This document shows positions 14,811 through 45,110 of a stretch of 47,234 bases of DNA, piece by piece. The position numbers and the translations under genes were made by a program. Under the pieces are notes generated by a model. It did no database searches. It was not told the DNA's origin and saw only the letters and a list, made by a program, of their open reading frames with translations. This DNA comes from a virus. The DNA lies in the IMG/VR virus record IMGVR_UViG_3300027765_000001, positions 1 to 47,234 of that record. One strand, written 5' to 3'. Each line of letters opens with the position of its first letter. Within the stretch, counting starts at the first letter, position 1.

Positions 14811-15782
14811 ATGGCCAACGCCTTCACCGATACGTCTGCACTGTCCAACACAGTGCAGACCGCGTACGACAAGTCCTTCCGCTTCAAGCTGCGCAGCCAG
14901 CCGCTGTTCCGCTCCCTGGCGGACGTGCACCCCACCGACCTGACCGCCCCCGGTTCCAGCATGGTCCTGGGCATCTGGGCGGACCTGGCCCCGGCGACCA
15001 CGCCTCTGACCGAGGACGTGGACCCGGACGCGGTTGCCCTGGGCAACCCGACCCAGATCACGCTCACGATTCAGGAGTACGGCAACCCGGTCCTCCGGAC
15101 CCGGAAGCTCATGCTCACGTCGATCACCGACGTGGATCCGGCTGCCGCCTCGATGATCGCGTACAACGCCGCGGACAGCGTTGACGTGCTGGTGCAGACC
15201 GAGCTGCGCGGCGGCTCGAACCTGATCCAGAAGAAGGCCGGCACCCAGTCCTACGTGACCAACGCCACCAGCACCACCGTGGCCACCACCATGGTGGCCA
15301 CCGACACCTTCGATTCCAAGCTGATCCGTCTGGCGACGGCCAAGCTCCGGACGAACAAGGCGGTGCCGAAGCGCGGCAGCATGTACGGCGGCTTCATTCA
15401 CCCCGAGGTGAGCCACGACCTGCGCGCCGAGTCCGGCGCCGCGGCCTGGCGCGACCCGCACAACTACAGCGCGGTCGGCAACGTGTGGGCCGGTGAGATC
15501 GGCGAGTACGAGGGCGCCTTCTGGATCGAGTCCCCGCGTTGCTACAACGCGGTGGACGCCGGTACCGGCGACAACACGGTGCGGCGCTTCCGCACCTATG
15601 TGCTCGGCCAGGAGGCTCTGGCCGAGGCCGTGGCCGAAGAGTTCCACGTCGTGGCCGGTCCGATCGTGGACAAGCTGGGCCGGTTCCGGCCGCTGGGCTG
15701 GCTCGGAACCGCGGGCTGGAAGCGGTTCCGCGAGGAGGCGCTGGTCCGCATCGAGACCTCTTCGAGCATCGACGCGAGCTGA
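14811..15782 (+). CDS. Major capsid protein (HK97 fold; resembles the N4-gp56-type family as I recall it)
   Basis: 323 aa. N-terminus MANAFTDTSALSNTVQTAYDKSFRFKLRSQPLFRSLADV and overall composition are typical of actinophage major capsid proteins. It follows the scaffold candidate. Confidence 0.8.
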   Translation: MANAFTDTSALSNTVQTAYDKSFRFKLRSQPLFRSLADVHPTDLTAPGSSMVLGIWADLAPATTPLTEDVDPDAVALGNPTQITLTIQEYGNPVLRTRKLMLTSITDVDPAAASMIAYNAADSVDVLVQTELRGGSNLIQKKAGTQSYVTNATSTTVATTMVATDTFDSKLIRLATAKLRTNKAVPKRGSMYGGFIHPEVSHDLRAESGAAAWRDPHNYSAVGNVWAGEIGEYEGAFWIESPRCYNAVDAGTGDNTVRRFRTYVLGQEALAEAVAEEFHVVAGPIVDKLGRFRPLGWLGTAGWKRFREEALVRIETSSSIDAS

Positions 15783-32489: not shown

Positions 32490-33926
32490 CTAGTGACGCC
32501 ATACGGGTTCGATCAGGTCGGGGTTGAACTTCACCACCCCCTTGCCTTGGGGGTGCACGATCACGCCCTCCAGGCTCCGCAGGATCAGCGCCCGCTGGCT
32601 CGGGAGTGGGAGGGCGTCGAACGCCTCCCGCGTGTGCTCCACGACCTCGTTGCGCCTGCCTTCGCGCTCCGCGCGACGCTTGAGCGTCGCCAGCTCCTTC
32701 TGCTTCTGCTCCAGATCCTGGAGCAGTGGAAGGGCAGTGGCCATGGTGATCTGATTGGCGATCACCGCGTCCCGTAGCTGCTTCAGGTCCGCGGTGCGCG
32801 AATCCAGCTCGCGCTGGTGCGCCTCGGTCCAGCCGGCCGCCACGAACTTCAGCTGCGCGCGCTGCTGGTCGGCCAGGACCAGCTCAATGACGAGCTGATC
32901 GATTGGGGCGCCGACTCGGGCAATCTTCCCGCAACCCTTGGCGTAGCCGCTGCGGTCGCACAGGTACACCTGGTACTGCGTGCCGCTGGCGCGGCGCCGC
33001 ATCTGGCCCCGCATGGGGCCGTTGCACGCCCCGCATCGGGCGATGCCCGACAGGAGATAGCGCATGGCGTTCGTACCCGGCCGCTCCCTGGTGGGGCGCC
33101 GGGACTCCAGCGCCTCCACCACCTCGGAGAGGCGGTCCTGGGAGCACAGCGGTTCCCAGGCCGCCGGAACCGGCGTTCCGGTGTCGTCCAGAACGACCTG
33201 CCCCCGGTAGACCTTGATCCCCGCCAGAGCCGGATTCGTCAGAATCCGGCGCACGGTCTTGTGATCCAGGCGCTCCGCGCCGCGGAACCGCTTCCCGGCT
33301 CGGGAGGTCGGGGCGATGCCCCGCTTGAGCCAGTCCGTCTGGATGTCGGAGATCTTCGCGCCGGCCAGGATGGCCTTGTGTGCGGCCAGGATCTCCGCCC
33401 TGGCCTCCGGGTCGGCCGTCAGGCCGTCGGCCTGCCAGCCATAGGGCTGACGCCCCCCGTGGGGCTTGCCTTCGCTGGCAAGTTCCAGTTGCTTGCGCTG
33501 GACGCGGCGGCCGGTGTCGGCCGAGGACTTGTTAGCGAACGCCACCATGACCCGGGCCATGGTCCGGCCGTCGGTGCTGGCCAGATTCACGTCACCCTCA
33601 AGGGTGGCGAACACGAAGTTCGGCCGCTCCTCGAAGATGTCGATGGCCCGCTCAAGGTCGCGCGGCTGACGCGCGAAGCGGTCCAGGTTGTAGACCACCA
33701 CGCCCTGGATGACACCCAGGTGCAGATCGCCCAGCAGGGCCTCGAACTCCGGGCGCACCACCTTGCGCTGGTACGCCGAGAAGTCGTTGTCCTCGTACAC
33801 CCTCACGACGTTCCAGCGACGTACCGCCGCGAGGGCGCAGCAGTCATCCCGCTGTCTGGCAACGCCCTTGGCGTCGCCTTCGCTATCGTCGGAGATGCGT
33901 ACGTAGACCCCCACGTCGATGGGCAT
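32490..33926 (-). CDS. int: Large serine recombinase (integrase)
   Basis: VGVYVRISDD...GVARQRDDC...VVVYNLDRFAR is the resolvase catalytic domain, followed by a long recombinase/zinc-ribbon/coiled-coil C-terminus. The ATG at 33926 follows GGGGAGGA. The track start at 34010 lacks an SD. Confidence 0.9.
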   Translation of the reverse strand: MPIDVGVYVRISDDSEGDAKGVARQRDDCCALAAVRRWNVVRVYEDNDFSAYQRKVVRPEFEALLGDLHLGVIQGVVVYNLDRFARQPRDLERAIDIFEERPNFVFATLEGDVNLASTDGRTMARVMVAFANKSSADTGRRVQRKQLELASEGKPHGGRQPYGWQADGLTADPEARAEILAAHKAILAGAKISDIQTDWLKRGIAPTSRAGKRFRGAERLDHKTVRRILTNPALAGIKVYRGQVVLDDTGTPVPAAWEPLCSQDRLSEVVEALESRRPTRERPGTNAMRYLLSGIARCGACNGPMRGQMRRRASGTQYQVYLCDRSGYAKGCGKIARVGAPIDQLVIELVLADQQRAQLKFVAAGWTEAHQRELDSRTADLKQLRDAVIANQITMATALPLLQDLEQKQKELATLKRRAEREGRRNEVVEHTREAFDALPLPSQRALILRSLEGVIVHPQGKGVVKFNPDLIEPVWRH

Positions 33927-34021
33927 GCGGTCCTCCCCTGGTGCCGGGCTCTCAGCAATAGGGGTGACAGTACCGTAAGTTGGCTTAGTGAGATCTTTAC
34001 GCCAATCCATGGTGTTGGATT
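33927..34021. other. Candidate attP region (95-bp AT-richer gap directly upstream of int)
   Basis: Positional inference only. I could not define a core or arm symmetry by eye. Confidence 0.3.
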
Positions 34022-36731: not shown

Positions 36732-37078
36732 CGCTCGCTCGCCTCCGGCTGGGCCGCTTCGCGGCGCTGGATGATCAGCTCCCGCCAGAGGCGGTTCAGG
36801 ATGGGATAGCCGCCCTCGTGCCAGTTCTCGCCGGAGGAGTCGCCGTCGGCGTTGAAGCCGTGCAGCTCGTAGGCACGGTTGTCCAGGTCCAGCATCTCCT
36901 GGCCGGTGACGAAGTACGGCTCCTCTCCTTGACTCCCGGCGTACTGCGCCGTCATGCACGAAGTGGTGCTCTTGATGTCCAGCCTGTCCAGGTCGATGTC
37001 CTGGGCCCAGGTGGGCCACTTCTTGTCCAGCAGAGCGGCACCGCGCTGGACGCGGGCCGCGTAGTCGATCTCGTTCAT
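36728..37078 (-). CDS. Hypothetical protein (116 aa)
   Basis: ATGA-coupled internal start of track ORF 36728..37390. Confidence 0.5.
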   Translation of the reverse strand: MNEIDYAARVQRGAALLDKKWPTWAQDIDLDRLDIKSTTSCMTAQYAGSQGEEPYFVTGQEMLDLDNRAYELHGFNADGDSSGENWHEGGYPILNRLWRELIIQRREAAQPEASER

Positions 37079-37443
37079 GCCGAGACCTCCGCTCCGGTCT
37101 CGGCCGGCAGGACGCCGGCCGCGCGGGCCTTGTCCTTGAACCACTCCCAGGTACCGCACCAGTCCTCGCGGAGCGCCAGCGCGTCCAGCTCGGCCATGCT
37201 GGCCGGGAGCAGGGCCAGCACCATGCTGGCCTCCTCGGCGTGGCTCTTGGCGTTCTTGGCGATCCAGCTCACCAGGGGGTCCTTCGAGCCCTCCAGGGGC
37301 TCCAGGGCGGCCTTCAGAGCCGCCTCCTTGATGCACGCCGGGCACGTGCTCGCGTCGTGGCGGCCGTACTGCACGGGGGTCTTGTAGCACGCCTCTTCGG
37401 CGGCCTTGACGGCCGCGAGGAACTTCTCGACCTCGGGATACAT
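37075..37443 (-). CDS. Hypothetical protein (122 aa)
   Basis: The leader CGAACGGAGAGGACGGGTTC precedes the ATG. The same leader occurs at 40707. Confidence 0.55.
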   Translation of the reverse strand: MYPEVEKFLAAVKAAEEACYKTPVQYGRHDASTCPACIKEAALKAALEPLEGSKDPLVSWIAKNAKSHAEEASMVLALLPASMAELDALALREDWCGTWEWFKDKARAAGVLPAETGAEVSA

Positions 37444-37470
37444 GAACCCGTCCTCTCCGTTCGGGGGATG

Positions 37471-37509
37471 AAAAGGGGCCCCTGCTCTCTCCTGCGGAGC
37501 AGGGACCCC
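37471..37509 (-). terminator. Strand-specific intrinsic terminator downstream of the tRNA-like gene
   Basis: The 13-bp stem is fully paired only on the minus strand (one G-U pair) and is followed by UUUU. Confidence 0.7.
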
Positions 37510-37730
37510 GGCCCGCCCCCTGGCACGAGGGCGGGCTCCGATGGCCATTTGATCAAGTTCAGGCTGGCCAGACCCTTACGGCTCCTTCTGATGGATCTTG
37601 GCTAGTTGGAGCGAAACTCACCCGGACCTAGAGAGCCGAAGCCCACATCAGGCGCTGGCCGGGCCCTTCGGGGCTCACTGCTCCCCGAAGGGGGAGTCCG
37701 GCGTTCCTGCATGCGTCCATCACGGTCCGG

Positions 37731-37816
37731 TGCCTCCAGCCGGATTTGAACCGGCGACCTCGCAGACCGAGCCAGGGGCTCGGGAATGCGCGCTCTTACC
37801 TCTGAGCTATGGAGGC
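37731..37816 (-). tRNA. tRNA-like gene with canonical acceptor, D and T arms but an expanded 30-nt anticodon arm (possible Arg CCU/CCG reading)
   Basis: GCCUCCA-UA-GCUC-AGAGGUAA-GAGC-G-[CGCA-UUC-CCGAG-CCCCUGG-CUCGG-UC-UGCG]-AGGUC-GCCGG-UUCAAAU-CCGGC-UGGAGGC-A. Confidence 0.5.
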
Positions 37817-37873
37817 GCCACCTACCCGCCGCCTTCCCGCGGCGCCGTACGGTGGCAGGTCTTACGGGCGGCT

Positions 37874-38071
37874 CTAGCGCTGGCCGGAGCCGCCACATGC
37901 CTGGCAGGTCACGGACTTGGTCTTGCCGTCCGTGTCCACGTAGATGTGGCGGCCGGTGCCGCCGCAGTTCGAGCAGTTGGCCATGGAACCCTCCTTGATG
38001 CGGGCCGCGCGCTCCGCGCGGACCATCTCCATGACTCCCGCTTGCGCGGGGTCGATCCACTCCTCCGGCAT
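37874..38071 (-). CDS. Small DnaJ-type zinc-finger protein
   Basis: CSNCGGTGR...CQACGGSGQ is two CxxCxGxG repeats. GAGGAGGG SD. Confidence 0.6.
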   Translation of the reverse strand: MPEEWIDPAQAGVMEMVRAERAARIKEGSMANCSNCGGTGRHIYVDTDGKTKSVTCQACGGSGQR

Positions 38072-38092
38072 GCCTTGCCCTCCTCATGGAGA

Positions 38093-38116
38093 AGCCCCCG
38101 CCAGTCGGCGGGGGCT
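38093..38116 (-). terminator. Hairpin after the DUF397 gene
   Basis: AGCCCCCGCC-agtc-GGCGGGGGCT, a 10-bp perfect stem with a weak U-tract. Confidence 0.5.
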
Positions 38117-38136
38117 GTTGCGCTGCTCCGAGGTCG

Positions 38137-38346
38137 TCAGACCTCGAAGCCCTGGGCGAACCGGGTGAACGCGCTCCACGCGGAGCGCTCAACCAGCAGG
38201 GTGGCCCCGTCGGGGCCCTCCTTGCCGTCCTTCACGCCGACGGGGCCGGCGGCAGGACGGGCGACGTAGACGCAGTTCTCGGGGTTGCTGTAGCTGGACT
38301 TGACGAATCCGGCTCCGTTGTGGGTTCCCAGATCTTCCCTGAGCAT
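38137..38346 (-). CDS. DUF397 (BldB-like) small protein
   Basis: FVKSSYSNPENCVYVA...VGVKDGKEGPDGATLLVERSAWSAFTRF is the DUF397 signature. GAGAGGAG SD. Confidence 0.8.
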   Translation of the reverse strand: MLREDLGTHNGAGFVKSSYSNPENCVYVARPAAGPVGVKDGKEGPDGATLLVERSAWSAFTRFAQGFEV

Positions 38347-39008
38347 TCGTACAGCTCCTCTCGGATGAACTCCCGGGAGTCGCGCGTGCTGAGAGCGCGC
38401 CCGACCATGTCGGAGAACATCGCCTTCAGTCTCGTGATGTCCTCGGTGGTGATCGTATAGAAACCGCCGATCACTGTCTCCAGGTGGCCTACGGCCGGTC
38501 CGGGATCGAGTACGAACAGGCTGAACGGCTCCGCCGTGACGGGAACCGGAATGTCCTCGGGGACCACGTGGATCACGATGTTGTTCGTGTCCTCGATCAG
38601 CCACAGCAGTTGCCGCAACTGCTCGGCGTGGCTGAAGGCGTTCATCAGGGGGCGTCGGATGGCCTGTTCCCCTACCAGGAACCAGGCTGTGGACATGGAC
38701 AGCGCCTTGCGGCGCGCGAAGAACGCCTCGGACCGCATCCGGCGGTGCGTGACCAGTAGGCCGAGTTCGCCGTGCGGTATGTCCGGGGTGTGCGACTTGA
38801 TCGCGCCCGCGGTGTACGCGGGCGTCTGGAGGAGCCCCGGGATCAGTAGGGGGCTCCACGTGCGGTAGGCCATGGTGCATGCGTCCAGGTCCGCGAGGCG
38901 GTCTATCGCCTGCGCTCCGAGGCCGCCGGCCACCTGGCCGACGCCCCTTTGATCCATGGCCCTTAAGGCTTGCAGTGCGCACTTGGCGCGCATCGAGTTG
39001 TCGTTCAT
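38232..39008 (-). CDS. DUF5753 (WhiJ/Scr1-like) protein lacking the usual N-terminal XRE HTH; contains a TTA codon
   Basis: LIPGLLQTPAYTAGAI is the DUF5753 hallmark, but only 56 aa precede it. The TTA codon lies at 38964-38966. AGGAGAGGG SD. The frame runs 115 nt (38232-38346) into the DUF397 gene. Confidence 0.7.
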   Translation of the reverse strand: MNDNSMRAKCALQALRAMDQRGVGQVAGGLGAQAIDRLADLDACTMAYRTWSPLLIPGLLQTPAYTAGAIKSHTPDIPHGELGLLVTHRRMRSEAFFARRKALSMSTAWFLVGEQAIRRPLMNAFSHAEQLRQLLWLIEDTNNIVIHVVPEDIPVPVTAEPFSLFVLDPGPAVGHLETVIGGFYTITTEDITRLKAMFSDMVGRALSTRDSREFIREELYECSGKIWEPTTEPDSSSPATATPRTASTSPVLPPAPSA

Positions 39009-39034
39009 CGGCTCCCTCTCCTGAGCGTGAACCA

Positions 39035-39063
39035 ATTGTTGCGCACGGTCACGTGCGCTGTCA
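39035..39063 (-). promoter_or_regulatory. Candidate sigma70-type promoter for the DUF5753/DUF397 pair, with a palindromic spacer
   Basis: Minus strand reads CTGACA-17 nt (GCGCACGTGACCGTGCG)-AACAAT, about 27 nt upstream of the ATG. The spacer is the inverted repeat 39041-39058. Confidence 0.3.
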
Positions 39064-39429
39064 GGCCCTGCGGGCCTGATTCCCTCTCCTGATGGACGTG
39101 CACTCCCGAAGGGGTGCGCCCCGCCTCAACCCGGGAGAGGTTCGGGGAGGCGGGGCGGATCATGGCCCTGCGGGGCCAGGCAACCGCCCCTCATGGGGGC
39201 AGGGGCGGTTGACAAGCTCAGCAGAGCGGGCAGCCTGCGCACACTGTGCGCATGAAATCGGCCCATGGGGCCGCAGGATGCGGCCGGACCTCCTGTTCGT
39301 CCTCCAGGGCCTCCCTGCCCTGGTGCTCGGTCTCGCCGTCCTGAAGGACGCGCTTGGCGCTGTGCTCCTGTGTGATCATCAAGGCTCCCCTGAAGGGGGA
39401 CTGGCAATGCGCGCCCCCCTGGCGCGCAT
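39041..39429. other. Intergenic hairpin cluster
   Basis: Perfect or near-perfect stems at 39041-39058, 39061-39079, 39119-39155, 39181-39211, 39236-39252 and 39407-39429. Confidence 0.7.
39218..39379 (-). CDS. Possible small protein (53 aa) ending CAGCPLC
   Basis: GGGGAG SD followed by ATG. High GC3. However, it lies inside a hairpin-rich region and is below the track cut-off. Confidence 0.35.
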   Translation of the reverse strand: MITQEHSAKRVLQDGETEHQGREALEDEQEVRPHPAAPWADFMRTVCAGCPLC

Positions 39430-39540
39430 GTGGGGTCTGTCAGTCCAAGGGAGCCGACACCGCCCCGGGGGCGCTCACCGCGCCCCGAGGGGGGACAGCG
39501 CGGGAGCGGAGCGGTGCCGGCCGACTTGGGGTGACAGGCG

Positions 39541-39768
39541 TTAGGACCACATGAGATCGGCTACCGCCATCGGGTCCTTCCCGGCGAGCCGGCCCAGTTC
39601 TAGAAGCGTCATCCTCTTGCGTTGTGCGCCCTCCCATACCAGCCGGGGGGACGCTGCTCCGCACAGGAGTTGGATGTTCGCCTCACAGAACAGGGCCATA
39701 GCCCCGGCGTCGTCGGCGCATCCGGCGCCGACCTTGTGCGCAGCGGCGAGTGTCTGTTCGTAGTCCAT
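39541..39768 (-). CDS. Hypothetical protein (75 aa)
   Basis: TGATG-coupled start. Confidence 0.5.
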   Translation of the reverse strand: MDYEQTLAAAHKVGAGCADDAGAMALFCEANIQLLCGAASPRLVWEGAQRKRMTLLELGRLAGKDPMAVADLMWS

Positions 39769-40073
39769 CACTCACCGCCCCTCAGTGCGCCCGCGTAGCG
39801 GGTCATCTCCTCATAGCTGGGCTCGATGGGCTGGTCATCCTCGTACGGCTCCCACAGGAGCCGTACGGGCCGCTTGTGGTCGCCTCTGGCGACATCGTCG
39901 GGCACGTGGTAGCGCGTGCCGTAGTCCTCCATGGCGTCCTGGTGGTGCTCCGCGCACCACACAAGGCCCTCGGCCTTGCGCTCCGCGCAGAACTCGCTGC
40001 GCGGCATGCCGTAGGCAATCTGCCATCCGCAGATCTGCGAGCCGCGCCATGGCTCGCGGGGAAGGGTGCGCAT
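39768..40073 (-). CDS. Hypothetical protein (101 aa)
   Basis: TGATG-coupled internal start of track ORF 39768..40169. Confidence 0.5.
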   Translation of the reverse strand: MRTLPREPWRGSQICGWQIAYGMPRSEFCAERKAEGLVWCAEHHQDAMEDYGTRYHVPDDVARGDHKRPVRLLWEPYEDDQPIEPSYEEMTRYAGALRGGE

Positions 40074-40447
40074 CACTTCACCCTCCGGTAGCGCCGGAAG
40101 CCGTTCGCGGGGCGACCCAGCAGGGCCGATGCAGCTTCCATGAAGCCGTCGAACCCTCCCCGCCCCCACGTACCCGGGGGGCGGTCGTCCTTAAGTGGCC
40201 GCACAAGACGGCGGTCGTTGGGGGCGTACATTCCGTCACACTCGTACGCGAACCACTGGCCCTCGGCCTCTAGGAGTACTCCACACTCGAAGCCGTCGAA
40301 CCGACCTTCGAGCCACGGATACACCTTCCATTCGTTGTCACGCTCCGAGTAGACGCAGCAGGCCGCGGGGTTCGTCACGGTGAAAGTGTGGTTCGCGGTC
40401 CCGATCTTGCCGACCGCCTCAATCTCCAGATAGTCAGCGGTGGCCAT
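40073..40447 (-). CDS. Hypothetical protein (124 aa)
   Basis: TGATG-coupled start. Confidence 0.5.
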   Translation of the reverse strand: MATADYLEIEAVGKIGTANHTFTVTNPAACCVYSERDNEWKVYPWLEGRFDGFECGVLLEAEGQWFAYECDGMYAPNDRRLVRPLKDDRPPGTWGRGGFDGFMEAASALLGRPANGFRRYRRVK

Positions 40448-40707
40448 CACTCGCCGCCCGTGCTCTCAAGGGCGATGATGTCGCACCCCGGCCGGCCGGG
40501 CCGGTTCGGGATCCACGTGATCGCGAGGGGCCGCCCCTTGCGGTCCTCGCCGGTCCACTGGTGAACCACGTCTTCGCGGTACTCCGCCGCGATGACGTAG
40601 GCGCGGTGGACCGTGGCGCTGACCTTCTGCGTGGTGAACGCGCCGCCGCTGCCGCGCCCCTCGATGCGGTAGAGCGTGATTCCACGCTCTCGCGTAAGGT
40701 TGCCCAT
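40447..40707 (-). CDS. Hypothetical protein (86 aa)
   Basis: The leader CGAACGGAGAGGACGGAATC precedes the ATG. Internal start of track ORF 40447..40788. Confidence 0.5.
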   Translation of the reverse strand: MGNLTRERGITLYRIEGRGSGGAFTTQKVSATVHRAYVIAAEYREDVVHQWTGEDRKGRPLAITWIPNRPGRPGCDIIALESTGGE

Positions 40708-40737
40708 GATTCCGTCCTCTCCGTTCGGGATCACCAA

Positions 40738-40767
40738 GAAGCCCCGGGGTGGCACCCCCGGGGCTTC
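40738..40767 (-). terminator. 12-bp hairpin GAAGCCCCGGGG/CCCCGGGGCTTC
   Basis: Read directly. It lies between palindrome copy A and the next SD. Confidence 0.5.
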
Positions 40768-40768
40768 G

Positions 40769-40784
40769 CCTTGCGACTGCAAGG
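40769..40784. promoter_or_regulatory. Conserved 16-bp palindrome CCTTGCGACTGCAAGG, copy A
   Basis: Identical to 41140-41155. 41490-41506 has a one-base insertion. Each copy sits next to a variable long hairpin. Confidence 0.6.
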
Positions 40785-40830
40785 CCAACAGGCCGTACGT
40801 GCGAGACGTACGGCCGATGGCCCGGCAGGG

Positions 40831-41112
40831 TCAGTCAGGGACCTTCGTACCGTCCGCGTAGCGGCCGGACTTGAAGCGACGCACTCCGGCATCCCACCCC
40901 TTGTTGTAGTGGGGGAGCAGAGGAGGTGTCGGGTAGCGCCGGTTCAGGATCCATGAGGGACACATGCGGCGGCGCGGACCAGGCTCTCCGGGGGCAGGCT
41001 TTTCTTCCTCGCCATAAGCGTCCACGTAGTTCGCGTGGTCCCATCCGCGCTCCGCGCCAACGTCGTACGCGCGCTGTTGCTCCTCCGTGCGCTCGGATGT
41101 GTTCTCAGGCAT
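40831..41112 (-). CDS. Hypothetical protein (93 aa)
   Basis: The leader AATGATCAAGTAGGAGAGGACCTGATC precedes the ATG. Confidence 0.5.
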   Translation of the reverse strand: MPENTSERTEEQQRAYDVGAERGWDHANYVDAYGEEEKPAPGEPGPRRRMCPSWILNRRYPTPPLLPHYNKGWDAGVRRFKSGRYADGTKVPD

Positions 41113-41139
41113 GATCAGGTCCTCTCCTACTTGATCATT

Positions 41140-41155
41140 CCTTGCGACTGCAAGG
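41140..41155. promoter_or_regulatory. Conserved 16-bp palindrome, copy B
   Basis: Read directly. It is flanked by the 13-bp hairpin 41162-41190. Confidence 0.6.
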
Positions 41156-41205
41156 CCAACAGGCAAGACGTGCGTTACGCACGTCTTGCCGATGGTCCGG
41201 CAGGG

Positions 41206-41463
41206 TCACTCAGCCGCGAGACTCGCGGCGATGTCTTGCCAGTCGATCCGATCGAAGTCGGCCCGCGAGATCTGGTAACGCGTGCCCTTGACGGCCTCAT
41301 CAGTGGACGTCCAGAACCACTTCGCCACCCAGTCCCGCAGGGTGGCGCCGGTCTCGTCACGCTGGGCCAGCTCCCGGCCCTCGAAATACAGCTCGTACGT
41401 GTTCTCCAAGAGCAGGGACACGCTGTGCGTTGCCCAGTCCTGGCCGTTGAAGGTCTCGCTCAT
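41206..41463 (-). CDS. Hypothetical protein (85 aa)
   Basis: It has the same 30-nt leader as 41112. Confidence 0.5.
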   Translation of the reverse strand: MSETFNGQDWATHSVSLLLENTYELYFEGRELAQRDETGATLRDWVAKWFWTSTDEAVKGTRYQISRADFDRIDWQDIAASLAAE

Positions 41464-41489
41464 GATCAGGTCCTCTCCTACTTGATCAT

Positions 41490-41506
41490 CCTTGCGGACT
41501 GCAAGG
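41490..41506. promoter_or_regulatory. Conserved palindrome, copy C (CCTTGCGGACTGCAAGG)
   Basis: Read directly. It is flanked by the 11-bp hairpin 41513-41537. Confidence 0.6.
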
Positions 41507-41552
41507 TCAAGGGGGTCACGGTCGGAGACCGTGACCCGATGACCGTACAGGC

Positions 41553-41657
41553 TCATTCCTCGCTGTCGTCATCGTTCTCGGCCGGCTCCGCCGGCTCAGG
41601 CTCCGGGAGCCCCGGCAGGGGCTCGAACATCCCCGCCAGGGGGTGATCCCAGAGCAT
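41553..41657 (-). CDS. Possible acidic peptide (34 aa)
   Basis: TGATG coupling. High GC3. Ends ...EPEPAEPAENDDDSEE. Confidence 0.3.
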   Translation of the reverse strand: MLWDHPLAGMFEPLPGLPEPEPAEPAENDDDSEE

Positions 41658-42067
41658 CAGAACTCCGACTCTTCCGGGTCGGAACACCAGCACGTGTCCA
41701 GTGCGCCATCCTCGTGCGCGTAGTCGTAGTCCACGTGCTTCGGAACCCACATGTCCGACCATCCGGGCACGCGGTCCGTGTCGCCGGACCGCACGCGGTC
41801 GTCCACGTACGCGCGGAGCGCGGCGAGCGCGCTCGCGTTCTCCGCGAGCGTTGCACTGTCCGCCCCTCGGGCGAACGAAGACATCAGGTACTCGCCGTCG
41901 CCCTCGTGAATCGTGCCGGTTGAAACGAACGAGTAGTTCGCCGTGTCGCCACCGTCGTTGAACCATGAGGCGATGGTGCGCGCGGTCCCGTGGTCGATCT
42001 CTTCGCCTTCACCCAGCGCGCTGATCGCGCGGGCAACGGCAGTGTCGTCACTCTCGTAACGGATCAT
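41657..42067 (-). CDS. Hypothetical acidic protein (136 aa)
   Basis: TAGGAGAGG SD. Internal start of track ORF 41657..42244. Confidence 0.5.
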   Translation of the reverse strand: MIRYESDDTAVARAISALGEGEEIDHGTARTIASWFNDGGDTANYSFVSTGTIHEGDGEYLMSSFARGADSATLAENASALAALRAYVDDRVRSGDTDRVPGWSDMWVPKHVDYDYAHEDGALDTCWCSDPEESEF

Positions 42068-42176
42068 GTCCCGTCCTCTCCTAAACGGCTCATGTGGTCC
42101 CCCGGTGGCACCCGGGGGATGGTCCGTAGGACCGACAGAGGGCACCTGCAAGAGGTGCCCTCGACTGTCCGGCGGA

Positions 42177-42503
42177 TCAGCGTCCGGTGATGCGTGAGTA
42201 GATCTCGCGCTCTTCCTCGGGCGTGAAACCCGAGAGGTGCGCACTCACGTCGCACCGCTCTCCGGTGTAGTTGTTGGACTGGAAGTTGCCGGAGTACCAC
42301 GTGTGCCCGACCTGAAGATCGGGATAACTGGACGGCTCGGTGCATCCCTCGGTGTCGATCAGGTCGGCGGCCCACTCGGCCACGGGGCCGTCGTCCACTT
42401 CGTGGGTGTGCTCGCTCGGGAAGGGCTTGCGCCCCCCGATGATCTCGCCGTCGGCGATCTGCTCGGGCTTGTAGTAGTGCTTGTAGATCGTGATCGTTGC
42501 CAT
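42177..42503 (-). CDS. Hypothetical protein (108 aa)
   Basis: TAGGAGAGG SD. Internal start of track ORF 42177..42668. Confidence 0.5.
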   Translation of the reverse strand: MATITIYKHYYKPEQIADGEIIGGRKPFPSEHTHEVDDGPVAEWAADLIDTEGCTEPSSYPDLQVGHTWYSGNFQSNNYTGERCDVSAHLSGFTPEEEREIYSRITGR

Positions 42504-42606
42504 GACCAGTCCTCTCCTACTGCTCATGTGGCCCGGGGATGGCACTCCCCGGACGGTCTGTACGACCGACAGGGCCCACGGATGTAACGCCGTGGGCCCG
42601 ACTGCC

Positions 42607-42768
42607 TTACAGGCCAAGAACGCGCCCCAGAAGGGCGCGTAGGGCCGCGTACGGATGCCTGCGGGCATCCGCCCGGCGCTCCCGCCGGAAGTCGGCGGGA
42701 GTCATCGCGCGATAGCGCGCGGCTGCGACCGCTATCGCGCGGTCAAGCTGCTCGGGGACCATGGTCAC
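42607..42768 (-). CDS. Hypothetical basic protein (53 aa)
   Basis: GTGA-coupled start inside track ORF 42607..42819. Confidence 0.4.
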   Translation of the reverse strand: MTMVPEQLDRAIAVAAARYRAMTPADFRRERRADARRHPYAALRALLGRVLGL

Positions 42769-42884
42769 GCGTCCCAGTGCCGGTACTCGGACCGGTGGAC
42801 GTAGGCCGTGCGCTCCCACGTGCCATCGACGTTGAACACGTCGATGCGCGTGCAGATCTGTCCGTACATGATCTCGTAACTCAT
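42765..42884 (-). CDS. Hypothetical peptide (39 aa)
   Basis: CAGGAGAGG SD followed by ATG. Confidence 0.4.
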   Translation of the reverse strand: MSYEIMYGQICTRIDVFNVDGTWERTAYVHRSEYRHWDA

Positions 42885-42990
42885 GATCAGCCTCTCCTGT
42901 CGATCGTGACTACTCATCAGGCAGGCAGGGACACGGCGCACTGCCAGGGTTATCACCTCGTGGCTCACCTGGTGTTACGTGCTGGTGTGC

Positions 42991-43018
42991 CCCTGCCCGC
43001 TTGACGAGACAGGGCCGG
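42991..43018. repeat. 28-bp direct repeat CCCTGCC(C/T)(G/C)(C/T)TTGACGAGACAGGGCCGG, copy 1
   Basis: 25/28 identical to 43330-43357. It overlaps terminator hairpin 43010-43032. Confidence 0.7.
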
Positions 43019-43032
43019 TTGCGCCGGCCCTG
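43010..43032 (-). terminator. Hairpin CAGGGCCGG-ttgcg-CCGGCCCTG after the first early gene
   Basis: 9-bp perfect stem located 8 nt after the stop at 43040. Confidence 0.5.
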
Positions 43033-43039
43033 CAACGTC

Positions 43040-43213
43040 TCAGAGGTACCGCGACGTTACGTCGCGGTTGTCCGCGTCGCGGACCACGATGTTCCACATC
43101 TGGCCCGTGCGCAGGTTGTCCAGGTACCCCAATCCATCCTTGCGGAAGTAGGGCGCGTTCACCGGCACGCTGTGCGCTCCGGTGTCGTCAATCCATGTCA
43201 CCGTTATGTCCAT
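43040..43213 (-). CDS. First early-block gene, hypothetical (57 aa)
   Basis: CAGGAGAGG SD followed by ATG at 43213. High GC3. Below the track cut-off. Confidence 0.5.
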   Translation of the reverse strand: MDITVTWIDDTGAHSVPVNAPYFRKDGLGYLDNLRTGQMWNIVVRDADNRDVTSRYL

Positions 43214-43230
43214 GTGCAGTCCTCTCCTGA

Positions 43231-43252
43231 CTGTCTCGTCAGAGAGGCAGGG
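43231..43252. repeat. Inverted copy (21/22) of 43330-43351, abutting the SD of the first early gene
   Basis: CTGTCTCGTCAGAGAGGCAGGG compared with the reverse complement CTGTCTCGTCAAAGAGGCAGGG. Confidence 0.7.
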
Positions 43253-43329
43253 AAGTCCGGTAAGCGCACGGGCAACCGCTTGACGCGGTTGCGGAACGAA
43301 CTCCGGGCATGCCGCCCGTACTGGGGCTG

Positions 43330-43357
43330 CCCTGCCTCTTTGACGAGACAGGGCCGG
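43330..43357. repeat. 28-bp direct repeat, copy 2
   Basis: See 42991-43018. Confidence 0.7.
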
Positions 43358-43700
43358 CGGTCCGGGCGCGTGGCGGGACGGTGGTGCGCTGTCCTCTCGC
43401 GCCGGCAGCGCCGGCCCTGCTCAGTCTGTGTGTCCGCACCTCTCGGAGTGATGCGGTACTCCCATCGCATCCAATGGGGGATGCGACTGTCCGTCCTATC
43501 CGTGACCGGTCATTGCGGGATGTCTGCCCCGCTCGGGAATCACGTCTCAGTGCCTAGCACTCACGCGCCTACGGAGTTCGTTCTCCCTGCGCACGTGGAC
43601 TCGCTGTGGGTTGTTCGCACCGGGTCGGTTCGAGCCGAAGGGCTCCATCCGCCACCCCTGCGATCCGGCCTCTCGGCCGGTCCTCCGTGGTGCTGAGACG

Positions 43701-43737
43701 ACTCTAGTGATTGATAGGTCTGTGTGACATAGGTCTG
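43701..43737. promoter_or_regulatory. AT-richest segment of the window, with two ATAGGTCTG direct repeats (43714-43722, 43729-43737) and a minus-strand TAGAGT box (43701-43706)
   Basis: Read directly. The promoter/operator or origin role is inference. Confidence 0.3.
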
Positions 43738-43923
43738 ACCGTAAAGCGATTGCAAAGAGTGTGGATCATGGGGCTGAGATGGTGAAGATCTCGTGAAAAC
43801 CACAGGTCGTGACACCTCGTGAGGCGGGAGCCTCTGGCCACGTGCGGCGCCATCGGCGCTCGCATCCGTAGATCCATGTGCGGTTCCGATGCCTCAAAGG
43901 GCACCGGATGCCCTGTCCGGGCG

Positions 43924-44911
43924 CGCGGTCTTGCACCGCGTGCCGCGGTGTGCCTCTCCCCGCGTAGAACGGGGAGGGTTCATGCACCCTCTAGCGCCCC
44001 CTGAAGCCCCGTCAAGGGGTCGAACGGGGGCGGTTGGCCCAGTGGGGCACGGGACGGCCCAAAGGCCGTCAGAACGGCGTACAGCGCTTCCGGAACGGGA
44101 GTTCCGGCATCACGGCCGGCAAGGCACCGCGCAAGCGGTGATCGGCCGGCGAAGCCTCGCGCGCGCGTACGCGCGAAGAGGGCCGCTCGCCAGAGCGGCC
44201 CGACTGTCGCCTTCAGGCGACCACTTGCGTCCTCACGCCGGACGGCGTGAGGGATCGGCCGCGAACGAGCAGCCTGCCTCGCAGGCTGTCTCGGGAGCGG
44301 TCAGTGATCGAAGATCACTTCCCGCACTGTGCCGCCGTAGGCGGCACGGGTGAGCTGTGCGGAGCACAGCGAACGCAAGCGCGATGACCACATCGAAGAT
44401 GTGGCATCGCATGATCCACACGCACAGAGAGCCGGCCTGTTGGCCGGCTCAGTGGTGTGCACCTGGTGGTGCACACACAGTGTGTGGTGCCTGGTGGCAC
44501 CACACCATGGGGCGACTGGACACCCCCTCAGGCACATAGTGCCTGGTCAGAGGGGGTGGACTGTCGCTCACGCTCCAGTCCAGGGCCTTGTCTCATTGTG
44601 CGCCGTATGGCGCACATTGTCCGATTCTGTCTCTCTTTGGCGCCGAAGGCGCCAGTTTGACCCCGGGGTTTTAAAACCCCGGGCCCTGGACTGGACTGGT
44701 CCGCCCCTGGCGGTGCGTCCCAGACCCCTTAGGAGAGCGCCGAGGGGCGCTCTCAGGGATTTGCGCCTGAAGGCGCATCTGGGCGGCCCCGACAGCCCCG
44801 AGGGGCCGCCACTGTCGCGCGTATGCGCGTGGCGCCATTCAACATAAGGTCAGCAAGTCGTGTCGTCAAGTCTCACCCTCCACTTGAGGGAGGTCGGGGG
44901 TCAGTGACCCC
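43924..44911. other. Dense array of about 25 unrelated GC-rich hairpins in non-coding DNA
   Basis: Coordinates of the individual perfect stems are listed in the first finding. No frame has coding-type GC3. Confidence 0.85.
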
Positions 44912-44927
44912 GCGCTAATCTCGGGAC

Positions 44928-45110
44928 ATGTCCACGTACGTCAAGTCCCCTGACCCGGTCGAGCCGTTGGTGAAGGTCGCGGTCTACATGTACCCGACGG
45001 AGCGCCAGAGGGTCCGTGAGCAGGCGTCCCGCCGCGGGATGGCCATGAGCGAGTACATCAAGTTCCTCATCGAGCGGGACCACCGCGGAACCCTGGACGG
45101 CCGGCCGTGA
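44928..45110 (+). CDS. Ribbon-helix-helix DNA-binding protein (regulator or small-terminase-like role possible)
   Basis: VKVAVYMYPTERQRVREQASRRGMAMSEYIKFLIERD shows a beta-alpha-alpha RHH pattern. High GC3. It is the first rightward gene. Confidence 0.55.
   Translation: MSTYVKSPDPVEPLVKVAVYMYPTERQRVREQASRRGMAMSEYIKFLIERDHRGTLDGRP

What the first reader, a model, noticed from the sequence alone, without database searches (positions are those of the whole stretch)
38137..39008. Self-contained WhiJ/BldB-type pair (HTH-less DUF5753 + DUF397) carried as an insulated module in the early region
DUF5753 regulators with DUF397 partners are abundant paralogous pairs in Streptomyces chromosomes and are linked to developmental control. 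Here a pair sits in a phage, flanked by hairpin clusters. It has its own candidate promoter (39035-39063) and a downstream hairpin (38093-38116). Three details are unusual. (1) Only 56 aa precede the LIPGLLQTPAY hallmark, so the N-terminal XRE helix-turn-helix normally fused to DUF5753 appears to be absent. (2) The gene contains a TTA codon (38964-38966), implying bldA-dependent translation. (3) The frame does not stop near the DUF397 start, as is usual, but runs 115 nt (38232-38346) into it. An HTH-less version could act as a dominant-negative or decoy toward host WhiJ-like systems, or as part of lysogeny, immunity or exclusion control.
Basis: partly seen in the sequence, partly recalled or inferred. 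Interest (0 to 1): 0.65.

Follow-up and report, generated by a model that had tools for sequence, protein, structure and literature searches.

The report
Phage WhiJ-like pair lacking DNA-binding domain
A temperate Streptomyces phage, and a whole clade of its relatives, carries a self-contained two-gene cassette copied from the host's WhiJ/BldB developmental regulators but stripped of its DNA-binding domain, and the first gene keeps a rare TTA codon that should tie its translation to the host's developmental stage.

Summary
ORF 39008-38232 (-) is a complete DUF5753 domain. Three full-length profiles show that the first ~100 positions, the XRE helix-turn-helix and linker, are absent. ORF 38346-38137 (-) is a DUF397 (BldB-like) protein.

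This is not a one-off truncation. At least 90 sequence clusters of 230-260 aa HTH-less proteins exist, many on 44-47 kb phage contigs.

The TTA codon is under selection. 18 of 19 distinct clade members have exactly one TTA: 17 at Leu15, one moved to Leu12. Flanking synonymous sites vary, and TTA is about 0.2% of Leu codons in this phage.

The long overlap with DUF397 (37-118 nt) is also a family trait, but the extra tail looks like a passive by-product. Its dN/dS is ~0.9, it is predicted disordered, and its length is what chance allows.

A conserved promoter, ribosome-binding site and flanking hairpins with compensatory stem changes support an insulated, moron-like unit.

The most likely function, which is inferred, is protein-protein decoy or sequestration within the WhiJ/BldB network, gated by the bldA tRNA. 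I rate it a new variant of a known kind, of moderately high interest.

The parts
39117..39157 (-). Strong GC-rich hairpin upstream of the module. Its loop carries ACCTCTCC (39141-39134), which is complementary to the module's ribosome-binding site. It may terminate or insulate against upstream transcription and act as an anti-SD element.
   Evidence: RNAfold gives -31 kcal/mol. An equivalent hairpin is present in 11 of 11 relatives examined, with entirely different but complementary stems and the same loop motif, 99-135 nt before the ATG. RNAalifold pairs the loop with the RBS in 10 of 10 sequences, with one double compensatory change in L019.
39035..39064 (-). Sigma-70-type promoter-like site: -35 CTGACA (39064-39059), 18-nt spacer, -10 AACAAT (39040-39035). 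The spacer holds a dyad, GCGCAC (39058-39053) / GTGCGC (39046-39041), which is a candidate operator or small hairpin.
   Evidence: It is the only promoter-like hit in 37500-39800, against 0.1 expected. TGACA and CACAAT-like hexamers are conserved in most of the relatives aligned. The dyad in the spacer differs in sequence but keeps its symmetry in most of them.
39012..39022 (-). Ribosome-binding site AGGAGAGGGAG of the DUF5753 gene. In some relatives it serves an extra first gene instead.
   Evidence: It is nearly invariant in 12 relatives, 2-6 nt before the ATG. The exact 11-mer occurs only once in the window.
38232..39008 (-). HTH-less WhiJ-type gene of 258 aa. Conserved N-terminal segment aa 1-36, DUF5753 domain aa 37-220, unconstrained tail aa 221-258.
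   Evidence: define the domain limits. One search finds 93 homologous clusters, nearly all 230-260 aa with DUF5753 only. AF2 mean pLDDT 84, core above 90, tail about 50; dN/dS is 0.22 for the N-terminus, 0.41 for the core and 0.9 for the tail.
38964..38966 (-). TTA (Leu15) codon. It is probably the only TTA in a well-supported coding region of this phage.
   Evidence: 18 of 19 distinct clade members carry exactly one TTA, 17 at this Leu and one (L105) at Leu12. Flanking synonymous sites vary. TTA is 2 of 901 Leu codons in 52 ORFs; the other TTA lies upstream of a better RBS+ATG, so it is probably in a leader.
38355..38360 (-). Shine-Dalgarno GAGGAG of the DUF397 gene, encoded by the Glu-Glu codons at the end of the DUF5753 domain.
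   Evidence: A GGAGG-like motif lies 8-9 nt before the DUF397 start in the group A relatives with a clear ATG or GTG start.
38137..38346 (-). DUF397 (BldB-like) gene of 69 aa, in the -1 frame relative to the DUF5753 ORF, which it overlaps by 115 nt (38232-38346).
   Evidence: Pfam DUF397; PHROG 10815; overlap of 37-118 nt in all 17 relatives with complete sequence.
38094..38115 (-). Terminator-like hairpin GCCCCCGCC-GACT-GGCGGGGGC followed by TTCTCC, 21 nt after the DUF397 stop.
   Evidence: a strong GC-rich hairpin (whole-segment folds of -26 to -48 kcal/mol) follows the DUF397 stop in nearly all of 17 relatives (less clear in L106). Stem sequences differ and are usually followed by TTCTTC or TTTC.

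Best explanation
SHOWN. This is an intact, selectively maintained two-gene cassette in a temperate Streptomyces siphophage.
- Gene 1 encodes only the C-terminal DUF5753 domain of a WhiJ-type regulator, preceded by a short, highly conserved 36-aa segment. The XRE helix-turn-helix is absent.
- Gene 2 encodes a cognate BldB-like DUF397 protein with its own Shine-Dalgarno sequence.
- The cassette has a conserved promoter-like site with a dyad in the spacer, a conserved RBS, and stable hairpins on both sides.
- Gene 1 keeps exactly one TTA codon within its first 15 codons across the clade.

INFERRED MECHANISM.
(a) Without an HTH, gene 1's product cannot act as a repressor or activator by itself. 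It acts by protein-protein contact, binding its cognate DUF397 protein and possibly host BldB or WhiJ paralogues. It would serve as a sequestering or decoy partner in the WhiJ/BldB developmental checkpoint network.
(b) Streptomyces has a single tRNA for UUA (bldA), which becomes effective late in growth. The DUF5753 protein would therefore be made efficiently only in developmentally advanced hyphae. The TTA-free DUF397 gene can initiate independently. The ratio of the two proteins would then report the host's developmental state to the phage, or let the prophage modulate it.
(c) The canonical stop at the gene junction was lost in the clade ancestor. The 12-39 codon read-through tail is a neutral, disordered appendix.
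For: HTH absence and intact DUF5753. Canonical S. coelicolor proteins have the HTH at about 15-80 and DUF5753 from about 90-110 (PMC10364602 Table 1).

Family conservation: 93 clusters at E<=1e-10, nearly all 230-260 aa with DUF5753 only, many on 44-47 kb contigs with phage genes. By contrast, 58 of 64 other DUF5753 ORFs on IMG/VR viral contigs carry HTH_31. The three INPHARED phages with the pair (Success, Samy, Darolandstone) have 278-313 aa proteins annotated as DNA-binding or HTH, with gene junctions of 1-4 nt.

Purifying selection: dN/dS is 0.22 for the N-terminus and 0.41 for the core, at a mean pS of about 0.5.

TTA: 18 of 19 members have one TTA. It is relocated three codons upstream in L105. 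Flanking Arg and Ala codons vary. No other conserved Leu column fixes a rare codon. TTA is 0.2% of Leu codons here.

Tail.

Cassette boundaries.

Literature:
- WhiJ is thought to repress development until the adjacent small protein SCO4542 interacts with it, and host whiJ-cluster paralogues, including the WhiJ-like SCO1242, carry conserved TTA codons (PMC4255298).
- BldB does not bind DNA and hetero-oligomerises with its paralogues, and natural WhiJ-BldB fusions exist (PMC10294661).
- UUA has been proposed as a phage sensor of the host's developmental stage (PMC10732093).
Against: No expression, interaction or phenotype data exist for this family.
- Binding of DUF5753 to DUF397 is inferred from genetics of host paralogues and from gene fusions, not shown here.
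- The phage proteins are only 23-29% identical to canonical phage-borne WhiJ-like proteins, so cross-talk with host paralogues is uncertain.
- The phage DUF397 departs from two hallmark motifs: CVEVA becomes CV[Y/F/A]VA, and RDS becomes KDG or KDS. This may mean a private partner rather than host targets.
- One clade member (L107) has no TTA. It has TTG at Leu12.
- A related subgroup on Streptomyces genome contigs (L009-L012, L099-L102) also lacks the TTA.
- Ribosome stalling at the early TTA could reduce DUF397 expression too, through polarity or mRNA decay. That would remove the proposed ratio effect.
Confidence: 0.5

Rival explanations
1. Toxin-antitoxin-like, abortive-infection or superinfection-exclusion moron. 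DUF397 would be a toxin or effector and the HTH-less DUF5753 protein its neutralising partner, without transcriptional autoregulation. bldA gating would set when neutralisation is available.
For: XRE-DUF397 pairs were predicted to be type II TA systems with DUF397 as the toxin (Makarova 2009 and Kaur 2020, as quoted; PMC10364602). The cassette has the moron layout of its own promoter and terminator. In relatives a variable extra gene occupies the slot behind the same RBS, which is typical of accessory cargo.
Against: None of the 14 S. coelicolor DUF397 proteins tested in PMC10364602, nor the earlier-studied Scr2, was toxic on overexpression. No PADLOC defence model matches any of the three proteins, even at E<=0.1. 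The cassette sits inside the early, rightward-to-leftward gene block, not next to the integrase or attP as in Samy, Darolandstone and Success.
Confidence: 0.2
2. Split regulator. The DNA-binding function is supplied in trans by another phage or host HTH protein that docks onto the DUF5753 domain or onto the conserved 36-aa N-terminal segment. The complex would still be a transcription factor.
For: The N-terminal 31 residues analysed (aa 6-36 of the 36-aa N-terminal segment) are the most constrained part of the protein (dN/dS 0.22), which suggests a specific interaction surface. A dyad sits in the module's own promoter spacer. Small HTH_23 genes occur a few kb downstream in relatives.
Against: No HTH was detected in the neighbouring small ORFs of the window by Pfam, NCBIfam or PHROGs. 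The gene directly upstream in relatives is variable and has no HTH hit.
Confidence: 0.12
3. Decaying remnant of a host whiJ-bldB pair captured by the phage. The HTH would have been lost by deletion and the stop codon by mutation, leaving no function.
For: The N-terminal truncation and the lost stop codon are what a degraded gene could look like in a single genome.
Against: Intact ORFs occur in 93 clusters down to 36% identity. Purifying selection acts on the core and especially the N-terminus. RBS, promoter and terminator are conserved. AF2 folds the core confidently. The TTA is maintained and once relocated.
Confidence: 0.03
4. Programmed -1 ribosomal frameshifting in the overlap makes a DUF5753-DUF397 fusion protein, mimicking the natural WhiJ-BldB fusions.
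For: DUF397 lies in the -1 frame and the zero frame stays open across its first 12-39 codons in all relatives. 129 natural BldB-WhiJ fusions are reported (PMC10294661).
Against: No X XXY YYZ slippery heptamer occurs in the overlap of any of 17 relatives. DUF397 has its own conserved SD and start codon. DUF397 synonymous sites in the overlap are not extra-conserved, as a frameshift stimulator would require.
Confidence: 0.03

Closest known systems
WhiJ / XRE-DUF5753 regulators paired with DUF397 proteins in Streptomyces (WhiJ-SCO4542, Scr1-Scr2, WhiJ9-BldB9)
   Same: It has the same C-terminal DUF5753 domain, covered in full by the profile. The gene order is the same, with a small DUF397 gene immediately downstream on the same strand. 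A conserved TTA codon, as in the host paralogue SCO1242, links it to bldA.
   Different: There is no XRE helix-turn-helix: about 100 N-terminal positions are replaced by a 36-aa clade-specific segment. The gene junction is a 37-118 nt overlap instead of about 1-4 nt. It is carried by a phage clade. Sequence identity to canonical members is only 23-29%.
Canonical WhiJ-like/DUF397 pairs in Streptomyces phages (PHROG 9908 + PHROG 10815; Success gp6/gp7, Samy 91/90, Darolandstone gp26/gp25)
   Same: These are also phage-borne pairs of the same two domains in the same order.
   Different: Those proteins are 278-313 aa, annotated as DNA-binding or HTH, and end 1-4 nt into the DUF397 gene. They lie next to the integrase or at the genome end, and Darolandstone also has an AbaA-like 'histidine kinase' neighbour. 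The present clade is HTH-less, has a long overlap and is embedded in the early block.
BldB (DUF397) developmental regulator
   Same: It is a small (69 aa) single-domain DUF397 protein with the KSSYS motif. [quoted passage not shown]
   Different: The E of the CxE motif is Y, F or A, and RDS is KDG or KDS, in the phage clade. There is no N-terminal extension as in BldB itself.
bldA/UUA-dependent regulation, and the proposed UUA-based sensing of host stage by phage phiHau3 (terminase bypassing)
   Same: A rare TTA codon is conserved at a fixed position in a phage gene. The likely read-out is the availability of host bldA tRNA.
   Different: Here the TTA sits early in a regulatory-type accessory gene. 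It is not flanked by bypass signals in an essential structural gene, and ordinary decoding, not recoding, is assumed.
Phospholipase D / NucT-like nuclease fold
   Same: The best Foldseek matches of the AF2 model in both libraries are PLD-family proteins: SauUSI nuclease domain, NucT, the pseudo-PLD BJ-TSA-9, and a phage NucT-like nuclease.
   Different: The scores are weak (E 0.006-0.06, TM 0.35-0.52). No HxK(x)4D motif is present, and the conserved residues are Q61, Y65, R92 and E177. At most it is a non-catalytic relative.

Membership tests
WhiJ-type XRE/DUF5753 transcriptional regulators | N-terminal XRE-family helix-turn-helix (HTH_31/HTH_3) | tested here: not met
   Pfam gives no HTH hit at E<=1. 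Full-length profiles align only from model position 97 or 101 onward. 58 of 64 other viral DUF5753 ORFs do have HTH_31.
WhiJ-type XRE/DUF5753 transcriptional regulators | C-terminal DUF5753 domain | tested here: met
   PF19054 E=1.3e-33, positions 3-178 of 178.
WhiJ-type XRE/DUF5753 transcriptional regulators | Adjacent co-oriented downstream DUF397 gene | tested here: met
   DUF397 ORF 38346-38137 is on the same strand. The arrangement is conserved in relatives.
WhiJ-type XRE/DUF5753 transcriptional regulators | Sequence-specific DNA binding and transcriptional control | not testable with these tools
   This needs EMSA, ChIP or reporter assays. The lack of an HTH argues against direct binding.
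BldB/DUF397 small proteins | Pfam DUF397 match above the gathering score, size <=100 aa | tested here: met
   44.7 bits against a cut-off of 24, 69 aa.
BldB/DUF397 small proteins | Conserved motifs KSSYSG, CVEVA (CxE) and VAVRDSK (RDS) | tested here: inconclusive
   KSSYS is present. CVEVA is CVYVA and RDS is KDG in the window, and this holds across 11 clade members.
Type II toxin-antitoxin (XRE antitoxin / DUF397 toxin, as predicted by Makarova 2009) | Antitoxin with a DNA-binding domain that autoregulates the operon | tested here: not met
   There is no HTH.
Type II toxin-antitoxin (XRE antitoxin / DUF397 toxin, as predicted by Makarova 2009) | Toxicity of the small protein, neutralised by the partner | not testable with these tools
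   Host paralogues were not toxic (PMC10364602). The phage protein is untested.
bldA-dependent (TTA-containing) genes | In-frame TTA codon, conserved among orthologues | tested here: met
   Codon 15. 18 of 19 clade members have one TTA, with one relocation, and the flanks vary.
bldA-dependent (TTA-containing) genes | Reduced translation in a bldA mutant or early growth phase | not testable with these tools
   This requires reporter fusions in bldA+ and bldA- hosts.
Phage moron (autonomous accessory transcription unit) | Own promoter and terminator flanking non-essential cargo | tested here: inconclusive
   A promoter-like site and terminator-like hairpins are present and conserved. No transcript data are available. 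Immanuel3-like phages, the nearest known by capsid, gave no DUF5753 match in the same phage collection, so the cargo is dispensable at that distance.
Known anti-phage defence systems (PADLOC) | Match to a defence-system protein model | tested here: not met
   There are no hits at E<=0.1 for DUF5753, DUF397 or the downstream zinc-ribbon protein.
PLD/NucT nuclease superfamily | HxK(x)4D catalytic motif and PLD fold | tested here: inconclusive
   The top Foldseek hits are PLD-family but weak. No HKD motif is seen among the conserved residues.

The most novel reading that the evidence does not exclude
A clade of temperate Streptomyces phages uses a bldA-gated, DNA-binding-deficient copy of the host WhiJ sensor domain, together with a private BldB-like partner, to read or override the host's WhiJ/BldB developmental checkpoint. 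This would couple the phage's lysis-lysogeny behaviour, or the lysogen's sporulation, to hyphal age. An anti-Shine-Dalgarno hairpin would additionally ensure that only transcripts from the cassette's own promoter are translated.
Probability: 0.2. Interest if true: 0.85.

Novelty: new variant of a known kind. Interest (0 to 1): 0.62.

Why it matters
WhiJ/BldB (XRE-DUF5753/DUF397) pairs are among the most abundant regulatory modules in Streptomyces. They run to 10-25 WhiJ paralogues per genome and a median of 19 BldB paralogues across actinobacterial genomes that carry bldB, yet their biochemical logic is unresolved. BldB does not bind DNA, and the role of the DUF5753 domain is unknown.

This phage clade provides a natural separation-of-function allele: the DUF5753 domain alone, kept under purifying selection together with a DUF397 partner. 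That makes the question "what does DUF5753 do apart from tethering an HTH?" directly testable.

The strictly maintained, once-relocated TTA codon is among the clearest comparative cases I have seen of a phage accessory gene being tied to the host's bldA developmental clock. It complements the only other proposal of this kind, the phiHau3 terminase. If the module modulates host development or phage decisions, it would be a new route of phage-host cross-talk in multicellular bacteria.

Tried and rejected
- Megablast of the locus and both halves of the window against 50,697 phage records found no match, so no annotated near relative could be used.
- Sequence search of the PDB with the family profile and with DUF397 found nothing meaningful.
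It was rerun without them.
- PADLOC gave no hits.
- Rfam in E-value mode over 37000-45000 found no known RNA family in the leader 39009-39217, only the tRNA-like element.
- The simple terminator scan found none because Streptomyces-type hairpins lack long T-runs. They were assessed by folding and comparison instead.
- I considered the 52-aa ORF 39005-39163, which overlaps the DUF5753 ATG by ATGA, as a possible split-off HTH. I rejected it because it lies over the conserved promoter, RBS and hairpins, and relatives have unrelated sequence or a different inserted gene there.
- I considered the 76-aa ORF 39541-39771, which looks HTH-like by eye. It has no profile support.
- Frameshift fusion was rejected because there is no slippery site.
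- The context of the TTA-less subgroup (L009) and of L013 was probed with Pfam. Only endonuclease VII and weak HTH hits came back, so whether those are prophages stays open.
- The 'Humibacter' label of L008 comes from a 7.9-kb MAG contig and was not taken as host evidence.
Full report
**1. What is there**

The window is a ~47 kb, 68% G+C phage genome.
- The + strand of 1-23 kb carries the endolysin (581-1396), portal (1457-3286), a long ORF at 4457-9364 that I take to be the tape measure from its size and position, tail proteins and the major head protein (14811-15782).
- The - strand from ~44 kb down to 23 kb carries an early/replication block with primase, DnaB-type helicase, methyltransferase, exonuclease and a serine integrase (32490-34010).
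- No record in a 50,697-genome phage collection is similar at the DNA level.
- The nearest major capsid proteins, at 55% identity, are from Streptomyces phages of the Immanuel3/Percastrophe group.

The host is therefore very probably Streptomyces and the phage is temperate.

**2. The observation**

On the - strand, ATG 39008 opens a 258-aa ORF that ends at TGA 38232.
- Pfam places a complete DUF5753 domain at aa 37-217, covering profile positions 3-178 of 178 with E=1.3e-33. It finds no helix-turn-helix even at E<=1.
- Two full-length profiles of canonical proteins align only with their C-terminal two thirds. NCBIfam 'Sco1979 family regulator' aligns positions 101-275 of 280. PHROG 9908 aligns positions 97-280 of 282.
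- In the 15 S. coelicolor pairs the HTH lies at ~15-80 and DUF5753 begins at ~90-110 (PMC10364602).

So the DNA-binding domain and linker are missing here and are replaced by 36 residues.

ATG 38346 opens a 69-aa DUF397 protein (E=1.5e-11), preceded by GAGGAG at the right distance. It lies in the -1 frame, and the DUF5753 frame continues 115 nt into it. The TTA at 38966-38964 is codon 15. Only the count of residues before LIPGLLQTPAY is 54 rather than 56.

**3. It is a family, not an accident**

A search of 5.8 billion proteins returned 93 clusters at E<=1e-10. Nearly all are 230-260 aa, all are annotated with DUF5753 only, and many lie on 44-47 kb contigs. Fetched contigs show the same phage backbone: endolysin, portal, a 646-aa protein with a weak terminase-domain hit, serine integrase, a WhiB-like gene, PD-(D/E)XK exonuclease.

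Three comparisons show how distinct the clade is.
- In IMG/VR, six to seven contigs belong to this clade. Of 64 other viral DUF5753 ORFs, 58 carry HTH_31.
- In cultured phages only Success, Samy and Darolandstone have the pair. All three have the HTH form (278-313 aa, annotated as DNA-binding/HTH), with gene junctions overlapping by 1-4 nt.
- A second HTH-less subgroup (41-48% identity) sits on short Streptomyces genome contigs and soil metagenome contigs.

Within the phage subgroup, pairwise synonymous divergence averages ~0.5. dN/dS is 0.41 for the domain and 0.22 for residues 6-36 of the N-terminal segment. The gene is functional and its short N-terminus is its most constrained part. AlphaFold2 with the family alignment gives mean pLDDT 84 and pTM 0.78, with a well-defined alpha/beta core spanning 31-222.

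**4. The TTA codon**

I extracted DNA for 19 distinct members of the phage subgroup, 48-98% identical to the window protein.
- Seventeen have TTA at the Leu homologous to Leu15.
- One (L105) has CTG there but TTA three codons upstream, at Leu12.
- One (L107) has none. It has TTG at Leu12.
- Each TTA-bearing gene has exactly one TTA.

The neighbouring codons vary synonymously: Arg is AGG, CGA, CGG, AGA or CGC, and Ala is GCC, GCA, GCT or GCG. What is kept is therefore the codon, not a nucleotide motif. Of the 13 other Leu columns conserved in the group, none fixes a rare codon.

In a rough set of 52 ORFs in the window, TTA accounts for 2 of 901 Leu codons. The second TTA lies upstream of a much better RBS+ATG and is probably in a leader. 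L013, a 37%-identical relative on a 44.9-kb S. himalayensis contig, also has TTA at this Leu. The subgroup on Streptomyces genome contigs has CTG, CTC or CTA.

Retention against strong codon bias, plus one relocation, is good evidence that a TTA early in this ORF is selected. From established knowledge, bldA is the only tRNA for UUA (PMC2000904) and host whiJ-cluster genes such as SCO1242 keep TTA codons (PMC4255298). This implies bldA-dependent translation. Atkins and colleagues have argued that phages may use UUA to sense the host's developmental stage (PMC10732093).

**5. The overlap**

All 17 relatives with complete sequence overlap DUF397 by 37-118 nt, typically 103. Loss of the junction stop is therefore ancestral to the family. 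The tail itself shows no sign of function.
- It is shorter in several members (P0007, P0018, P0085, L008, L011).
- Its own-frame dN/dS is ~0.9.
- Third positions of conserved DUF397 codons, which are second positions of tail codons, are at least as variable inside the overlap (0.85 bit) as outside it (0.46 bit).
- AF2 predicts disorder there, with pLDDT ~50.
- In this phage's genes that alternative frame has a stop only every ~34 codons, so P(no stop in 38 codons) is about 0.32.
- The tail's apparent conservation (SSSPxTxTPxTASTSP) is the shadow of the conserved DUF397 motif region (F)VKSSYS...CVYVA.
- It usually ends at a TGA created by the Val-Lys codons of VGVKDGK.
- No slippery heptamer exists in any relative, so a frameshift fusion is unlikely.

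**6. Cassette boundaries**

The only sigma-70-like site in 2.3 kb is CTGACA-18-AACAAT at 39064-39035. Both hexamers are conserved in most relatives. The spacer holds a dyad whose sequence differs between phages but stays symmetric in most of them. This could be a candidate operator or a small hairpin. The RBS AGGAGAGGGAG is nearly invariant.

In four relatives a variable 87-95 aa gene is inserted between this RBS and the DUF5753 gene, which then starts at an ATGA-type junction.

Upstream at 39157-39117 is a -31 kcal/mol hairpin, present in all 11 relatives examined. The stems are completely different but complementary, and the loop (A/C)CCUCUCC is invariant. That loop is complementary to the RBS. 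RNAalifold pairs the two in 10 of 10 sequences. In L019 the loop C-to-T change is matched by a G-to-A change in the RBS. This is a single event and a lead, not proof. It suggests that read-through transcripts from upstream have the RBS masked, while transcripts from the cassette's own promoter do not.

Downstream, a GC-rich hairpin follows the DUF397 stop in nearly all of the 17 relatives (less clear in L106), again with different stems.

The description 'insulated module' is thus supported at the sequence level. Transcription itself is untested.

**7. What it probably does**

What is shown:
- a functional HTH-less DUF5753 protein and a cognate DUF397 protein;
- cassette architecture;
- a selected TTA.

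What is inferred: without an HTH the protein must work through protein contacts. Genetics of whiJ/SCO4542 indicate that the small protein acts on WhiJ (PMC4255298). BldB does not bind DNA, hetero-oligomerises with its paralogues, and occurs fused to WhiJ in 129 proteins (PMC10294661).

The most economical model is that the phage DUF5753 protein binds DUF397-type proteins, its own and perhaps host ones. It would act as a sequestering decoy whose synthesis is gated by bldA, while the TTA-free DUF397 gene initiates from its own SD.

The phage DUF397 deviates from the CxE and RDS hallmarks: CVYVA and KDG in the window, and similar residues across the clade. This is compatible with a co-evolved private pair.

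Rivals are a TA-like or exclusion moron, a split regulator with the HTH supplied in trans, a decaying remnant (refuted) and a frameshift fusion (unsupported). No defence-system profile matches.

**8. Fold**

No solved structure matches by sequence. Foldseek's best matches for the model are PLD-family proteins.
- In the PDB these are the SauUSI nuclease domain, the pseudo-PLD BJ-TSA-9 and NucT (E 0.006-0.06, TM to target ~0.5).
- In BFVD the best match is a phage NucT-like nuclease.

The HKD motif is absent. This is a weak lead that DUF5753 may be a non-catalytic PLD-like, dimer-forming domain.

**9. Verdict**

This is a new variant of a known kind: an HTH-less, bldA-tagged, phage-clade-specific version of the WhiJ/BldB pair. 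The three papers in the searchable library that mention DUF5753 do not describe such a form.

Noticed in passing
window 37731-37816 (- strand); relatives L004 10956-11026, L014 3910-3986, L017 4292-4382, L018 3898-3988, L019 3955-4039, L105 6576-6649, L107 2835-2905, L111 2843-2926: A tRNA-like gene lies just downstream of the cassette (Rfam tRNA 54 bits, E=9e-10). Acceptor, D and T arms are canonical and conserved. In the window the anticodon loop is replaced by a 22-nt extended hairpin (TT-CCGAGCC-CCT-GGCTCGG-TC), so it cannot decode normally. In relatives the same element has a highly variable anticodon arm, which Aragorn calls CTA ('Pyl'/amber), GAT, GGG, CGG, GGC or undetermined. L111 has the same extended arm with compensatory stem changes. 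Its function is unknown: tRNA mimic, decoy or recombination site.
   Followed up: partly
window 39117-39157 and 39012-39022 (- strand): The loop ACCUCUCC of a conserved, stem-covarying hairpin is complementary to the cassette's RBS GGAGAGG ~120 nt downstream. A second GGAGAGG copy lies at 39080-39090. In L019 a loop C>T change is matched by a G>A change in the RBS. This may be an anti-Shine-Dalgarno element that blocks translation from read-through transcripts. No Rfam family matches.
   Followed up: partly
L004 9741-10004, L014 ~2716-3000, L096 ~245-480, L103 3021-3308: In four relatives an extra 87-95 aa gene of variable sequence, with no Pfam hit, is inserted between the conserved promoter/RBS and the DUF5753 gene. 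The DUF5753 gene then starts at an overlapping stop/start junction. The slot behaves as a cargo site.
   Followed up: partly
window 37874-38071 (- strand): A 65-aa protein with two CxxC pairs (zinc-ribbon or DnaJ-central-domain-like, weak hits only) starts 22 nt after the cassette's terminator hairpin. Similar CxxC mini-proteins follow the cassette in several relatives (L008, L017, L103, L094, L105, L106).
   Followed up: no
window 39218-39382 (- strand): A small upstream ORF of 54 aa ends in W..F.R..C.GC..C*. The same C-terminal Cys motif is conserved at the equivalent position in L004, L017, L019 and L106. A run of hairpins follows it before the cassette.
   Followed up: no
window 42583-42585 (- strand), within ORF 42177-42668: This is the only other in-frame TTA found in the rough gene set. 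It lies 27 codons into a long ORF but upstream of a strong RBS (AGGAGAGG) and ATG at 42503. It is therefore probably non-coding, which leaves the DUF5753 gene as the phage's only TTA-containing gene.
   Followed up: partly
window 43915-44001 (- strand): Aragorn calls a 'tRNA-Pyl (cta)' here, but Rfam's tRNA model gives no match at E<=1. It is probably a false positive in the poorly coding 43.2-44.9 kb region between the divergent early and late gene blocks.
   Followed up: partly
window 38232-39008 (protein model m857676404ce6): The DUF5753 domain, for which no structure or fold assignment turned up in the PDB sequence search or in the papers consulted here, gives PLD/NucT-family proteins as best structural matches in both the PDB and BFVD. 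It lacks the HKD motif. It may be a non-catalytic PLD-like domain.
   Followed up: partly
window 32490-34010 (- strand): The serine integrase gene is embedded co-directionally in the middle of the early/replication block, rather than at a genome end next to an obvious attP. Relatives share this layout, with a WhiB-domain gene just downstream.
   Followed up: no
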